From contig JAHLWS010000056.1 of NCBI GenBank assembly GCA_019057795.1, forward strand, positions 1 through 64,000: DNA of 64,000 bases, written 5' to 3'. The notes below the pieces were generated by a model. That model made no database searches, was not told where the DNA came from, and saw only the letters and a list, made by a program, of their open reading frames with translations. Shown here in pieces: positions 30,050 to 33,626 of the stretch. The stretch comes from Promethearchaeota archaeon. GTDB taxonomy: Archaea > Asgardarchaeota > Lokiarchaeia > Sigyniarchaeales > SOKP01. Position 1 is the first letter of the stretch; each line of letters starts with the position of its first letter. The position numbers were made by a program, and so were the translations under genes.

Positions 30050-30185
30050 TTTTTTTTTTATTTTAAAGGTAGATTGCTTTTTCTAAGAATGTTACACAAT
30101 TAAACTTCAAAATTCTTATTTGGTGACATTAATTATTAAATTAAACTCCACAAAAAAAAAGCAAAATAGGATAAGTGTAAATCGA

Positions 30186-30890
30186 ATGGCCGAGGAATTT
30201 GACTTTGAAAAGTATTGGCTAAATAAGTTTTCTAACTGTTTAGACGAGGTTGCTGGAGAAGAAGTAAGAAAAGATGTAATGACCGGAAGTGAAAAGCTTT
30301 CAGATGCATCGTCCAGAGAAGAAGTTATTAACTGGTCTAATCAAGCTATGGAAAGATTAAGTTCTTTAGTTAACGACGAAAAACAAATTGGTGTCATGAC
30401 GGGATGCGCTTGTAATTATTCTAAATCTCAATTACAAGAGATAAGAGAAAAGTACGAACAAACAAAGGATATTAACGTAGCACATCGTATGCTACAGGAA
30501 CAATTTGAATCTCTGCTCAAGGATACACTTAAATTAAATGAAGATCTTATCAAAAAAGTTATTAAAAAAGGATGGAGTACTGCTGGAGTTAAGGAAGGAA
30601 ATGTAATTATAGCTACCAAGATTCCTAAAAGCGCTTATATTAAACAATATTTAGAAACAACTGATCCAGACGAAAAAAGGGCCATTTATTGCCATTGTCC
30701 TCGCGTTAGAGACGCTTTAAAATTGTCAATAGAGAATTTACCAGAAATTTATTGCTACTGTGGAGCAGGCTTTTTCAAAGGTATCTGGGAAGAAATCCTT
30801 CAAAAACCCGTAAAAGTTAAGGTTTTAGAATCTGTTATGAAAGGAGACGAAGTGTGCAAAATTGCAATATATCTTCCTCCGGATGCGTAA
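30186..30890 (+). CDS. Cys-rich DUF6144-like (V4R-related) protein
   Basis: CAC, YCHCP, YCYCGAGF, VLESVMKGDEVC; probable start is ATG 30186. Confidence 0.7.
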   Translation: MAEEFDFEKYWLNKFSNCLDEVAGEEVRKDVMTGSEKLSDASSREEVINWSNQAMERLSSLVNDEKQIGVMTGCACNYSKSQLQEIREKYEQTKDINVAHRMLQEQFESLLKDTLKLNEDLIKKVIKKGWSTAGVKEGNVIIATKIPKSAYIKQYLETTDPDEKRAIYCHCPRVRDALKLSIENLPEIYCYCGAGFFKGIWEEILQKPVKVKVLESVMKGDEVCKIAIYLPPDA

Positions 30891-30911
30891 ATTTAGAAAG
30901 AATAAAAGCGA

Positions 30912-31235
30912 CACCTGAGATATATACCCACCTTTTTGTTCTATTTCTCGTCGCCAAGAAATAGGTGGGGCATCAAACTAAGCGGCCTACCTAAAACTCG
31001 TTCCAAATACTCATCGCTTTCATTTGGCCTTGCACCAAGGTTTTAGCTCGTTCCAACCGTTCCCGATTACAATTTCTCTGGCTTAAATCCAAGTCATTAA
31101 TGTACGTAAAAGGGCAGTGCCGTTTCAGTTGCTAAAATACGATTTTCACCGTAGTAGTTATCTACTCCTTGCTTGGAAAGTGAGGTGAGGTTCCTCAGCA
31201 GTTCAATGACTACCGTCAGCCCCATATTTCATGTG
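30912..31235 (-). ncRNA. rnpB: Archaeal RNase P RNA (type A-like)
   Basis: On the minus strand: P2 UGGGGC/GCCCCA; P4 GAGGAACCUCACC pairing with AACAAAAAGGUGGGU; GCAACUGAAAC; GGUGCAAGGCCAAAU; GGUAGGCCGCUUAG; P9 with GAAA loop; P19 with GCGA loop; P1 CACAUGAAAUAU/AUAUCUCAGGUG. Confidence 0.93.
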
Positions 31236-31441
31236 ATTTTCTTTTTTTCGCTTTTTACTTTCCAATTAATACATAGTTCCATAACTATTTATAATTTAAG
31301 GTTATCTTGCAACGGTGTTATTTACAAAATTAAAAATACTTTTGAATTTAAAGCTCAATCTATATATCACTGGGATTGTTTTTTATAGAGAATAAAAAAA
31401 AAGTTATTAATTATTTTATTTATTTGTTAGAATGTCTTGAA

Positions 31442-33626
31442 CTAGGATAGAGCAAGTAAGTTTCCAAGCAACCCAGCTCCGCCATTGAACATTAGAAGTA
31501 AACCCATGAAAATCGAAGCTGTCAACGACATCACTACTAACAGCGTGTTTATACTTGGTCCTGCGGTGTCCTTTCATCGATAATTGGTTTTCAATACCAA
31601 AGACCTTAAATGGGTCACCGACCGTATCTCCCGTTATACTAGCTTTATGTACTTCAGTCCCTTTTCCTCCAAGGTTACCGTCCTCTATCCATTTCTTTGC
31701 GTTATCCCATGCCCCACTTATGCTTTTTGCTCGAAATAAGCTATAATCTGCATTGGACATAAACACTGCAAACACAAATCCGGATAAGATAGCTCCAGCT
31801 AAGAATGCTACTAAGGAAGCTACGCCAAAAAGAATTCCAACACCAATAGGAACAGTTATAGAAATAATGCTTGGTATAATTAACTCACGTAGTGAGCCTT
31901 TTGTTGCAATATCAATTGTTTTATGGAAATCAGCGGGTTCTTCACCAGTTAATATTTTTGGATTTTCTTCAAATTGCCTACGAATTTCATCGACCATCTT
32001 CGCTGCGTTTCTTTGGACAGCTAAGACTAACAACGCTGAAAATAGCGCTGGGATAACAACTCCTATAAAGGCACCTACTAGAACATTGACGCTTAATAAA
32101 TCCACAACAGTAATACCAGCCTCTTCTGCAAAGGAAAACATTAAAGCCATGACGGTTAAGTTCGCAGCTCCAATTGCGAATCCCTTTGTAATTGCTTTGG
32201 CGGTGTTACCAGCAGAATCTAATTTATCAGCAGTTCTAATTACTTCATCACCTAATTCTCCTTGTTCTGCAATAGCTCTTGCATTGTCAACGATTGGGCC
32301 ATACGCATCATTTGTTACTATTGTTCCTACAATTGCTAACATTCCAACAGCAGCCATTGCTACACCAAATACACCAGCTAACCAAAATGCAATTGTCATA
32401 GCAAGTATAACTCCTATTGCAGGAGGAACTACACTTAGAAGTCCATATGAGAAACCAGAAAGAATTACAACTGCATGACCTTCTTTAGCAGCATGAGCTA
32501 TGTTTTGTACTGGTTTCCTATCATCCCGAGTAAAATAATCACTCGTAAAACCTAAAACTATACCAGATATAAGTCCAATCACTGATGTGCCCCATATTCG
32601 CCATAATAACCACATTTCATCGTCTCCTAATCCAATTGATAGGAAAATCGTTATTACAGCGGATAATGCAAAATAGATTAAAGTTGCTAAATAAGTTCCT
32701 GTGTTTAAAGCTTTTCCAGGTTCTTCAGAACCTTTATATTTTATTATGTATATTCCTATAAGCGAAGCAATTAGCCCTACGCCGCAAAAAACAACTGGAG
32801 CAACAATAAATACAGAGGTTCCTATAGTTGTTAATGTTACATTTGCGAAAGGTGCTTTAATAATACCTGCTACACCAAAGGCTGCTGCAAGCATCATTGC
32901 TGCAACAATGGATGCAACATAAGAATCGAATAGGTCACTGCCCATTCCAGCTATGTCACCAACATTATCACCTACATTATCAGCGATCGTTGCTGGATTT
33001 CTTGGATCATCTTCAGGTAGATTGTATTCAGCTTTTCCTACTAAATCAGCACCTACATCTGCTGTTTTCGTAAAAATTCCACCGCCACACTTCATAAATA
33101 AAGCTATACTACTGGCACCGAAGCTAAACCCTAACACAACAAGAGGAGACTGAAAAATCCAATAGATTATTGATACGCCTATTAAAGCAACTCCCACCAC
33201 GGCTAAACCCATTACTGCTCCTCCAAAAAATGCTACATCGAAACCGGCTTTTGTGCCCTTGGTACAACCTTGTGCTGCTCTCGTATTTGCTTTAACACCA
33301 ACATACATCCCTAACCAACCTGCGAGCATAGAACCCACACAACCAATTAAGTACGCTATCGCTTGTTCCCAATTTAATGTCCCAGGATTCGTCATATTAG
33401 GAAGTAAGAATAACATTACTAAAAAAAGTACTCCTACAAAGATTCCAAGAACTTTATATTGGACTTTTAAGTATGTTTTAGCCCCTTCTTCGATATATCC
33501 AGCGACTTCTTGCATTCTTTCGTTGCCAGGATCTTCTTTTAAAACTAAAGATCTAAAGTATACAGCAAGAACGATTGAAATTATCCCTGCGATTAGTGCA
33601 ACAATTAAAATTATTGGCACTGCCAT
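31442..33626 (-). CDS. hppA: Membrane-bound H+-translocating pyrophosphatase (K+-independent type); predicted spliced CDS complement(join(31442..31572,31607..31717,31748..33626)), 706 aa
   Basis: ADVGADLVGKAE, EDDPRN, DNVGDNVGD, GNTAKA (Lys indicates K+-independent). Removing the two inserts restores AGGAWDNAKK, GDTVGDPFKDTAGPS and a final TM helix ending in TAG at 31442-31444. Confidence 0.95.
31573..31606 (-). other. Putative BHB-type mRNA intron 2 (34 nt, frameshifting) in hppA
   Basis: Central helix CAUU/GAUG, bulges UA^A and AA^A, exon helix CGGUGACC/GGACACCG, intron helices GGU/AUC and UUGGU/ACCAA. Confidence 0.85.
31718..31747 (-). other. Putative BHB-type mRNA intron 1 (30 nt, in frame) in hppA
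   Basis: Central helix AUGC/GCAU, bulges AG^A and AA^G, exon helix AUGUCCA/UGG(G)GCAU, intron helices UU/AA and GCUU/GAGC. Confidence 0.85.

What the first reader, a model, noticed from the sequence alone, without database searches (positions are those of the whole stretch)
31442..31770. Two bulge-helix-bulge introns in a protein-coding gene (hppA): candidate mRNA splicing system in an Asgard archaeon
Seen in the sequence: hppA carries two short inserts, each inside an invariant pyrophosphatase motif (SNA[DYSLFRAKSIS]GAWDNAKK and GDPFK[VFGIEN..., frameshift]). Each insert with its flanks forms a full hBHBh' structure, a 4-bp helix between two 3-nt bulges. Cutting after the second nt of each bulge yields GCA GGT GGG GCA TGG (AGGAW) and TTT AAG GAC ACC GCA GGA CCA AGT (FKDTAGPS), with exons of 1879+111+131 nt giving 706 aa. 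Established: BHB is the substrate of the archaeal splicing endonuclease EndA, with ligation by RtcB. Archaeal introns are mostly in tRNA and rRNA, and the well-known mRNA case is crenarchaeal cbf5. Inference: a multi-exon mRNA processed by tRNA-type splicing in the lineage closest to eukaryotes, analogous to non-spliceosomal XBP1/HAC1 splicing. I cannot check whether this has already been reported.
Basis: partly seen in the sequence, partly recalled or inferred. Interest (0 to 1): 0.97.

Follow-up and report, generated by a model that had tools for sequence, protein, structure and literature searches.

The report
Two tRNA-type introns in hppA mRNA
The only membrane pyrophosphatase gene of this Loki-type Asgard archaeon is broken by two tiny inserts (30 and 34 bases) shaped like the introns that the tRNA-splicing enzyme removes. 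Comparison with relatives shows they must be removed for the protein to be made, a kind of splicing reported for hardly any archaeal protein-coding gene.

Summary
hppA lies on the minus strand (33626..31442). It carries a 30-nt insert (31747..31718) inside SNAGGAWDNAKK and a frameshifting 34-nt insert (31606..31573) inside GDPFKDTAGPS. Removing both gives an intact 706-aa PPase. Each insert sits in a bulge-helix-bulge (BHB) register whose cut sites match the junctions defined by intron-less orthologues.

The inserts are not assembly artefacts. A Logan assembly holds identical DNA, and three further haplotypes from four JGI metagenome contigs carry both inserts. Among four haplotypes the introns are conserved like non-synonymous sites: 3/64 sites vary against 52/172 third codon positions. 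Substitutions downstream of the frameshift are synonymous only in the spliced frame (45:6, against 3:43 in the read-through frame). So the gene is under selection and the inserts are removed before or during decoding.

The 28 other same-genus species with a match lack both inserts, as does an allele 99.5% identical upstream. The 3' end of the gene is recombinant.

The genome encodes two EndA paralogues (alpha/beta-like), RtcB and Archease. The single uL11 gene carries a similar 28-nt BHB insert, shared by six species with a compensatory stem change.

No RNA data could be obtained. My genome-wide screens were underpowered. This scan noted the same kind of intron earlier in other parts of this genome. 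The closest published case is crenarchaeal cbf5.

The parts
31442..33626 (-). hppA pre-mRNA coding region (membrane-bound, K+-stimulated-type pyrophosphatase). Three exons give 706 aa after removal of both introns.
31748..33626 (-). Exon 1 (1879 nt), ending ...UCC AAU GCA G
31718..31747 (-). Intron 1 (30 nt, in frame, no stop). It splits the invariant GGAWDNAKK motif.
31713..31757 (-). BHB 1. Outer helix 31757-31754 with 31716-31713; central helix 31753-31750 (AUGC) with 31723-31720 (GCAU); bulges 31749-31747 and 31719-31717.
31607..31717 (-). Exon 2 (111 nt): G GU GGG GCA ... CCA UUU A
31573..31606 (-). Intron 2 (34 nt, frameshifting). It splits GDPFK|DTAGPS and is identical in all four haplotypes.
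31565..31619 (-). BHB 2. Outer helix 31619-31613 with 31571-31565 (one A.A mismatch); central helix 31612-31609 (CAUU) with 31578-31575 (GAUG); bulges 31608-31606 and 31574-31572; inner GGU/AUC and hairpin UUGGU/ACCAA.
31442..31572 (-). Exon 3 (131 nt including TAG), encoding ...K DTAGPSINTLLVVMSL...LLALS. Its substitutions are synonymous only in the spliced frame.

Best explanation
hppA is transcribed as a three-exon pre-mRNA. At two places, exon sequence and intron sequence pair to form a bulge-helix-bulge motif. The archaeal splicing endonuclease, here an alpha/beta-type EndA, cuts after the second nucleotide of each 3-nt bulge. RtcB, helped by Archease, joins the exon ends, and the 30- and 34-nt introns are released, probably as circles. 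The mature mRNA encodes a normal 706-aa ion-pumping pyrophosphatase.

Shown here: the inserts are real; they are exactly placed relative to intron-less orthologues; the BHB geometry is in the right register; intron sequence and the spliced reading frame are both under purifying selection; and the enzymes are encoded.

Inferred: that EndA and RtcB are the enzymes that act, and that the introns are circularised.

Both introns appear to have been gained once, on the stem of a small clade of 3'-end alleles. They now segregate within and between closely related populations through homologous recombination of the gene's 3' end.
For: Geometry and junctions.

Independent assemblies and haplotypes: a Logan contig from SRR14803104 with identical DNA, and JGI contigs Ga0209345_10002461, JGI24724J26744_10004890, Ga0466255_069005 and Ga0209121_10007878.

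Selection: over the whole CDS, 84-87 synonymous against 40-45 non-synonymous codon differences, with 4-fold-site divergence of 15-16% against 1-2 differences in 64 intron nt. In exon 3 the syn:non ratios in the spliced frame are 9:2, 9:2, 6:2, 9:0, 7:0 and 5:0; in the read-through frame they are 1:8, 1:9, 1:7, 0:8, 0:7 and 0:4. Polymorphic sites are 3/64 in the introns against 52/172 at third codon positions (Fisher p about 1e-5), similar to the 9/344 at first and second positions. All three intron-1 polymorphisms would be non-synonymous if translated.

Single copy: there is only one PPase match in the genome.

Exon context: intron-bearing alleles form 8/8 and 10/11 exon-dependent pairs, against 9-11 of 19 in their five closest intron-less relatives, mostly through synonymous differences.

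Single origin: the four intron-bearing 3' ends form a clade with support 99/96.

Machinery: two EndA paralogues, each with N and C domains. One is closest to the crenarchaeal catalytic subunits 3P1Z_B, 3AJV_B and 2ZYZ_B. The other has K where the first has the catalytic-loop His. RtcB and Archease are neighbours. PMC5829648 reports alpha-beta EndA with the broad-specificity L1 loop in Asgard.

Second gene: the uL11 insert of 28-29 nt is shared by six species, is absent in three, has central helix GCAU/AUGC, and shows a G:C to A:U compensatory change in its stem.
Against: The BHB folds are not the predicted minimum-energy structures, and the folding z-scores are ordinary.

In three of four haplotypes the central helix of intron 1 has an A.A mismatch, leaving 3 bp. 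The inner helix of intron 1 is only 2 bp before a mismatch.

There is little true covariation in hppA itself: the variable paired sites change only between U:A and U.G.

My genome-wide strict-BHB screens gave no excess over shifted-cut controls. They were dominated by noise from gene boundaries.
Confidence: 0.85

Rival explanations
1. The inserts are removed from the RNA, but not by EndA and RtcB. Another nuclease-ligase pair, or an unknown RNA-guided or self-catalysed reaction, does it, and the BHB-like fold is incidental.
For: No enzymology is available, and the BHB conformers are not the MFE structures.
Against: The cut sites predicted by the BHB rule coincide with the homology-defined junctions at both introns. 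This has a chance of about 1e-4 per site. It is also true at the uL11 intron. At 30-34 nt the inserts are far too small for group I or II ribozymes.
Confidence: 0.05
2. Translational recoding. The ribosome hops over intron 2, in the manner of T4 gene 60, from the AAG before it to the AAG at its end. Intron 1 is simply translated as a 10-residue loop.
For: The 4-nt AAGG repeat at both ends of intron 2 provides matching take-off and landing codons. Intron 1 is in frame and has no stop.
Against: No stop codon follows the take-off site. Intron 1 has no matching codons, and translating it would replace a Gly of the invariant GGAWDNAKK motif. Its three polymorphisms would all be non-synonymous, yet its sequence is conserved like a structured RNA. 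The uL11 insert has the same BHB design.
Confidence: 0.04
3. The intron-bearing allele is a decaying or non-functional copy: a pseudogene hit by two small insertions.
For: Most relatives lack the inserts. An intron-less allele exists in what appears to be the same species.
Against: The gene is single-copy in a genome estimated 100% complete. Four haplotypes that diverged after the insertion show strong purifying selection, including in the frame downstream of the frameshift. There are no further stops or indels.
Confidence: 0.03
4. The inserts are an assembly or sequencing artefact, or are excised at the DNA level.
For: None found.
Against: The same two inserts occur in a Logan assembly and in four JGI metagenome contigs, with their own point differences. 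The intron-less alleles found differ by about 15% in the flanking 300 nt, so they are not excision products.
Confidence: 0.01

Closest known systems
BHB intron in the cbf5 (pseudouridine synthase) pre-mRNA of Crenarchaeota (Watanabe 2002; Yokobori 2009, PMC2738675)
   Same: It is a short intron inside an archaeal protein-coding sequence, in a BHB motif, in lineages with heteromeric broad-specificity EndA. Its presence and absence are lineage-specific.
   Different: Here the gene is a membrane ion pump rather than an RNA-modification enzyme, and the host is an Asgard (Loki-type) archaeon rather than a crenarchaeon. There are two introns in one CDS. They are very young, restricted to one allele clade within a species complex, and linked to a recombinant 3' end. 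Splicing of cbf5 was shown experimentally, whereas here it is inferred.
BHB intron in the 5' UTR of HVO_1309, Haloferax volcanii (PMC7714728)
   Same: It is an mRNA substrate of the archaeal splicing endonuclease that is released as a circle. That paper states cbf5 was the only other mRNA case known in 2020.
   Different: It lies in the UTR rather than the coding sequence, so it does not restore a frame or motif. The endonuclease there is of the homodimeric alpha'2 type.
Non-canonical and multiple BHB introns of Asgard and TACK tRNA genes (PMC5829648; bioRxiv 10.64898/2026.10.13.758758)
   Same: The motif, the size range, the predicted enzymes, the repeated recent gains and the preference for sites that can fold into a BHB are all the same. 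In this genome aragorn finds only about 18 tRNA genes, consistent with heavy interruption.
   Different: The host RNA here is an mRNA, so splicing must also preserve a reading frame and compete with translation. Those papers do not report mRNA introns.
IRE1/RtcB splicing of XBP1 and HAC1 mRNA in eukaryotes
   Same: It is protein-only, structure-guided excision of a short frameshifting intron from an mRNA, followed by ligation of the tRNA-ligase type.
   Different: The nuclease is IRE1 acting on twin stem-loops, unrelated to EndA and the BHB. The process is regulated by stress. This is an analogy only.
Translational bypass of T4 gene 60
   Same: A short non-coding gap inside a CDS is flanked by matching codons. 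This applies to intron 2 only.
   Different: Intron 2 has no stop after the take-off codon, the model cannot account for intron 1, and BHB geometry is present.

Membership tests
Archaeal BHB (EndA-type) intron | Two 3-nt bulges on opposite strands separated by a 4-bp helix | tested here: met
   Intron 1: AUGC/GCAU with bulges AGA and AAG. Intron 2: CAUU/GAUG (one G-U) with bulges UAA and AAA. In three other haplotypes intron 1 has 3 bp plus an A.A mismatch, a relaxed form.
Archaeal BHB (EndA-type) intron | Flanking helices h and h' on both sides of the core | tested here: met
   Outer helices are 4 bp (intron 1) and 6 of 7 bp (intron 2). Inner helices are 2 bp, then mismatches, then a 3-4 bp hairpin (intron 1, weak), and 3 bp plus a 5-bp hairpin (intron 2).
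Archaeal BHB (EndA-type) intron | Cleavage after the second bulge nucleotide on each strand yields the functional, colinear product | tested here: met
   The predicted junctions equal those defined by intron-less orthologues and restore both invariant motifs and the frame.
Archaeal BHB (EndA-type) intron | Splicing endonuclease and RtcB ligase encoded by the host | tested here: met
   There are two EndA paralogues, one catalytic-like and one lacking the aligned His. RtcB and Archease are also present.
Archaeal BHB (EndA-type) intron | Intron is actually excised and the exons ligated (RNA evidence or in vitro cleavage) | not testable with these tools
Only evolutionary evidence is available: selection on the spliced frame.
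Archaeal BHB (EndA-type) intron | Base pairs maintained in evolution (covariation) | tested here: inconclusive
   In hppA there are only U:A to U.G changes at two pairs, one central-helix pair that is A:U in the window and A.A elsewhere, and no variation in intron 2. The uL11 intron shows one true compensatory G:C to A:U change.
Membrane-bound pyrophosphatase (Pfam PF03030 H_PPase) | Full-length match, with the GGAWDNAKK and GDPxKDTxGPS motifs intact | tested here: met
   E = 1.9e-217 for the read-through ORF, truncated at profile position 624 of 645. The motifs are intact only in the spliced form.
Gene-60-type translational bypass | Matching take-off and landing codons, a stop codon after take-off, and applicability to every gap | tested here: not met
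   AAG/AAG is present at intron 2, but no stop follows it. Intron 1 has no matching codons.
Pseudogene | Relaxed constraint, or further disabling mutations, after the disruption | tested here: not met
   Polymorphic sites are 9/344 at first and second positions against 52/172 at third positions. Exon 3 changes are synonymous in the spliced frame. The gene is single-copy.

The most novel reading that the evidence does not exclude
The hppA introns are one visible instance of a genome-wide and evolutionarily active population of EndA-spliced mini-introns in ordinary protein-coding genes of this Asgard genus. These introns are gained recently, adapted through synonymous exon changes, spread or lost by homologous recombination, and obligatory for expression of essential genes such as uL11. 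On this reading, routine mRNA splicing by a protein-only pathway exists in prokaryotic relatives of eukaryotes and may gate translation of the affected genes.
Probability: 0.55. Interest if true: 0.93.

Novelty: new member of a known kind. Interest (0 to 1): 0.85.

Why it matters
In the literature I could search, a BHB intron inside an archaeal coding sequence is documented only for cbf5 of Crenarchaeota, with one further case in the 5' UTR of a Haloferax mRNA.

Here a housekeeping ion pump of an Asgard archaeon carries two such introns, and evolutionary evidence shows that they must be removed. Together with the uL11 case, this indicates that the tRNA-splicing machinery processes mRNAs in the archaeal lineage nearest to eukaryotes.

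There are practical consequences. Gene callers mis-annotate such genes: public records list a 736-740-aa product with a false C-terminus. Completeness and pseudogene estimates for Asgard MAGs would be affected in the same way.

It also gives a tractable natural system for studying intron gain. The introns are very young, an intron-less allele is 99.5% identical just upstream, a recombination breakpoint is visible, and the synonymous exon changes that build the splice motif can be identified.

Tried and rejected

2. Genome-wide census of strict BHB motifs whose removal joins long ORFs. Counts in the true register equalled those with the 3' cut shifted by 1-2 nt (for example 1858 against 1672-1858). 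Gene boundaries in operons swamp any signal.

3. The same candidates tested for paralogue alignments spanning the junction. The result was 218 against 211-254, or 25 against 24-31 for gapless alignments, so no excess. Both screens are underpowered. They also required a contiguous inner helix, which the uL11 intron fails. They say nothing either way about how many mRNA introns exist.

4. Intron sequences as repeats or mobile elements. blastn-short of both introns against the genome found only chance matches of 17 nt or less.

5. Other introns in hppA homologues of 40 relatives. The split matches turned out to be ordinary HSP breaks or loop insertions once the spliced protein was used as query.

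6. Monophyly of intron-bearing genes on the whole-gene tree. It was not recovered (AU p = 0.11). Mosaicism explains this: the 3' 420 nt alone give a clade.

7. A cDNA-like intron-less copy with the BHB-adapted exon context. None was found among the cluster members examined.

8. Thermodynamic fold significance was not informative.
Full report
WHAT IS THERE. The finding lies at the 3' end of a 2.2-kb gene on the minus strand, ATG at 33626. Read straight through, the gene gives a 736-aa ORF. Pfam H_PPase matches it at E = 1.9e-217, but only as far as residue 674 and profile position 624 of 645. Against the solved Vigna H+-PPase (4A01), the read-through translation shows a 10-residue insertion exactly inside SN-GGAWDNAKK, and the alignment ends at GDPFK. 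Removing 31747..31718 (30 nt) and 31606..31573 (34 nt) gives exons of 1879, 111 and 131 nt and a 706-aa protein with SNAGGAWDNAKK and GDPFKDTAGPSINTL restored.

BHB GEOMETRY. I checked the motif in the proper topology: on each strand, outer helix, 4-bp central helix, 3-nt bulge, inner helix, with the two bulges on opposite strands.

- Intron 1: outer helix UCCA/UGGG, central helix AUGC (exon) with GCAU (intron), bulges AG|A and AA|G. The inner part is weak: UU/AA, then mismatches, then a GCU(U)/(G)AGC hairpin.
- Intron 2: outer helix GGUGACC/GGACACC with one A.A mismatch, central helix CAUU/GAUG, bulges UA|A and AA|A, inner helix GGU/AUC plus a UUGGU/ACCAA hairpin.

Cutting after the second nucleotide of each bulge gives exactly the junctions needed. 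Those junctions are defined independently of structure: ten same-genus orthologues align with clean 30- and 34-nt gaps. Intron 1 has only one possible placement. Intron 2 has five equivalent placements because of an AAGG repeat, and the BHB picks one of them.

Over all placements on both strands of the window, geometry as good as that of intron 1 occurs at 8.6e-5, and as good as that of intron 2 at 3.9e-5. The criteria were chosen after seeing the data, so these figures are order-of-magnitude only. Folding energy alone is not unusual (z -1.96 and -1.49). The BHB conformers lie 2.9 and 1.0 kcal/mol above the MFE. The argument therefore rests on register, not stability.

NOT AN ARTEFACT. The exact 736-aa product is also encoded on a Logan contig assembled from run SRR14803104, with identical DNA. 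Its 90%-identity protein cluster contains two more read-through forms with both inserts. Their DNA, plus one more contig found by a junction pattern search, gives three further haplotypes from four JGI metagenome contigs: Ga0209345_10002461 and JGI24724J26744_10004890 (the same haplotype), Ga0466255_069005 and Ga0209121_10007878. All carry both inserts at the same sites, each with its own point differences.

THE INSERTS MUST BE REMOVED FOR EXPRESSION. The haplotypes differ at 15-16% of 4-fold degenerate sites, yet by only 1-2 of 64 intron nucleotides. Over the whole CDS, synonymous codon differences outnumber non-synonymous ones 84-87 to 40-45.

In the 583 nt shared by all four haplotypes, polymorphic sites number 52/172 at third codon positions, 9/344 at first and second positions, and 3/64 in the introns. 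Fisher's test of introns against third positions gives p about 1e-5. The haplotypes are related, so this p-value is indicative only.

The key test is exon 3, downstream of the frameshifting intron. Across the six haplotype pairs, substitutions are synonymous:non-synonymous 9:2, 9:2, 6:2, 9:0, 7:0 and 5:0 in the spliced frame. In the read-through frame they are 1:8, 1:9, 1:7, 0:8, 0:7 and 0:4. All these lineages carry the intron, so selection has acted on the spliced frame since the intron arrived.

The three polymorphisms in intron 1 would all change the amino acid if translated. One lies at an unpaired position. One turns U.G into U:A. One makes the outermost central-helix pair A:U in the window but A.A in the other three haplotypes. 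hppA is the only PPase match in this genome, which is estimated 100% complete. A pseudogene reading is therefore not tenable.

DISTRIBUTION AND HISTORY. The genus holds 42 genomes, counting this one. Of the 41 others, 28 have a match to this region, and none carries either insert.

The whole-gene tree is star-like, and the window's nearest relative is the intron-less G042 at 96% identity. The gene is a mosaic, however. An intron-less allele on two JGI contigs (L057, L058) differs from the window at only 9 of the first 1816 CDS positions but at 45 of the last 305. The breakpoint lies 35-60 nt upstream of intron 1.

On the last 420 nt of spliced CDS, the four intron-bearing haplotypes form a clade with support 99/96, sister to an intron-less allele. 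So both introns were probably gained once, and the 3' end has since moved by homologous recombination.

The intron-bearing clade also carries mostly synonymous exon states that build the helices: UCC AAU GCA, GGU GAC, AAG and ACC. These give 8/8 and 10/11 exon-dependent pairs, against 9-11 of 19 in the five closest intron-less alleles. I cannot tell whether the site was pre-adapted or adapted after insertion. Genes downstream of hppA differ between haplotypes, so the gene's 3' end borders a variable island.

MACHINERY. The genome has two roughly 200-aa EndA paralogues, each with the N-terminal and catalytic domains. One is most similar to the catalytic subunits of the crenarchaeal heterotetramers 3P1Z_B, 3AJV_B and 2ZYZ_B. 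The other is closest to M. jannaschii EndA and has Lys where the first has the His of the Y..H loop. This fits an alpha-beta enzyme. PMC5829648 reports that Asgard archaea have alpha-beta EndA with the L1 loop linked to broad substrate range. RtcB and Archease are encoded side by side.

NOT UNIQUE TO hppA. Earlier notes of this scan list many similar candidates elsewhere in this genome. I treated them as leads and tested one.

The single uL11 gene matches the Pfam N-domain only from position 26. Across 31 genomes (this one and 30 relatives) the domain is contiguous in some and split at about 26/27, 17 or 9 in others. Aligning nine species shows a 28-29-nt insert after GGCAU in six of them and none in three. 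Its register gives central helix GCAU/AUGC and bulges AA|A and AA|A. The inner stem is GGAAAU/AUUUCC in two species and GAAAAU/AUUUUC in two others, a compensatory G:C to A:U change. An essential single-copy ribosomal protein gene cannot be a pseudogene, so mRNA splicing of this type must operate in the genus.

aragorn finds only about 18 tRNA genes in the genome. This is consistent with the heavy tRNA interruption described for some Asgard lineages in bioRxiv 10.64898/2026.10.13.758758. My own genome-wide screens for more mRNA introns gave no excess over controls, but they were dominated by noise. I therefore make no claim about their number.

RIVALS. Four alternatives were considered.

- A gene-60-like ribosomal hop could use the AAG...AAG repeat of intron 2. 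It has no stop after take-off, cannot restore the Gly-Gly at intron 1, and does not explain the BHB design shared with uL11.
- Assembly artefact is excluded by the independent assemblies.
- DNA excision is excluded because the intron-less alleles differ by about 15% in the flanks.
- Removal by some other RNA pathway cannot be formally excluded without enzymology.

KNOWN OR NEW. Full-text searches found BHB introns in mRNAs only for crenarchaeal cbf5 (PMC2738675) and the 5' UTR of Haloferax HVO_1309. The latter paper (PMC7714728) states that cbf5 was the only other case. The 2026 preprint on Asgard tRNA introns does not mention mRNAs.

The mechanism is therefore a known kind. The gene, the lineage, the presence of two introns in one CDS, and the population-level picture (young, polymorphic, recombining, with exon flanks fitted to the motif) are new as far as I can tell. 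The Asgard assignment rests on the name 'Candidatus Lokiarchaeota archaeon' attached to a cluster member at 90% identity or more.

VERDICT. Confidence that these are EndA-type introns spliced from the hppA mRNA is about 0.85. Direct RNA evidence is the missing piece.

Noticed in passing
G000 contig C73 about 108500-108960 (minus); loci L055, L056: The single uL11 gene has two inserts. One is 28 nt after GGCAU, in BHB register (GCAU/AUGC, bulges AAA and AAA), and is shared with five other genus members with a compensatory G:C to A:U stem change. The other is a private 30-nt insert containing TAA, between CCUAU and GGUCC. It has a 7-bp hairpin but does not fit a strict BHB.
   Followed up: partly
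L083 (G005) and L082 (G010), upstream part of uL11: These two species carry a further insert of about 30-40 nt earlier in uL11, after ...GGAGGGAG, at a position where G000 has none. The gene has been hit at several sites across the genus (one search shows splits at about 9, 17 and 26).
   Followed up: no
window about 31105-31810; L057, L058: There is a recombination breakpoint in hppA. An intron-less allele is 99.5% identical over the first 1816 nt of the CDS and 97% identical over CDS plus upstream flank, but only about 84-85% identical from about 31810 through the downstream intergenic region.
   Followed up: yes
window 30120-31400; L048 5513-8223; L050 1038-2991: Genes downstream of hppA differ between haplotypes: a DUF6144-like gene here, N6_N4_Mtase plus MethyltransfD12 in L048 and L049, AAA_15/AAA_21 in L050, and an MFS transporter in intron-less L089 and L095. 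The 3' end of hppA borders a variable island.
   Followed up: no
G000 contig C70 112485-114285 (L033, L088): RtcB (+) and Archease (-) are convergent neighbours about 70 nt apart.
   Followed up: no
whole genome G000: aragorn with intron detection finds only about 18 tRNA genes in a genome scored 100% complete. Ten of them have introns and several calls look doubtful. Most tRNA genes are presumably too interrupted to be recognised.
   Followed up: no
L029 (G003:C128): The hppA orthologue of G003 matches residues 1-41 and 222-616 only, with about 100 nt in between. This is a large internal deletion or a misassembly.
   Followed up: no
L020, L037 (G030:C30): The hppA orthologue has an 18-residue in-frame insertion (IEFGENDVTLWILKGTIP) in the first periplasmic loop that no other sequence shares. 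It was not examined for a BHB.
   Followed up: no
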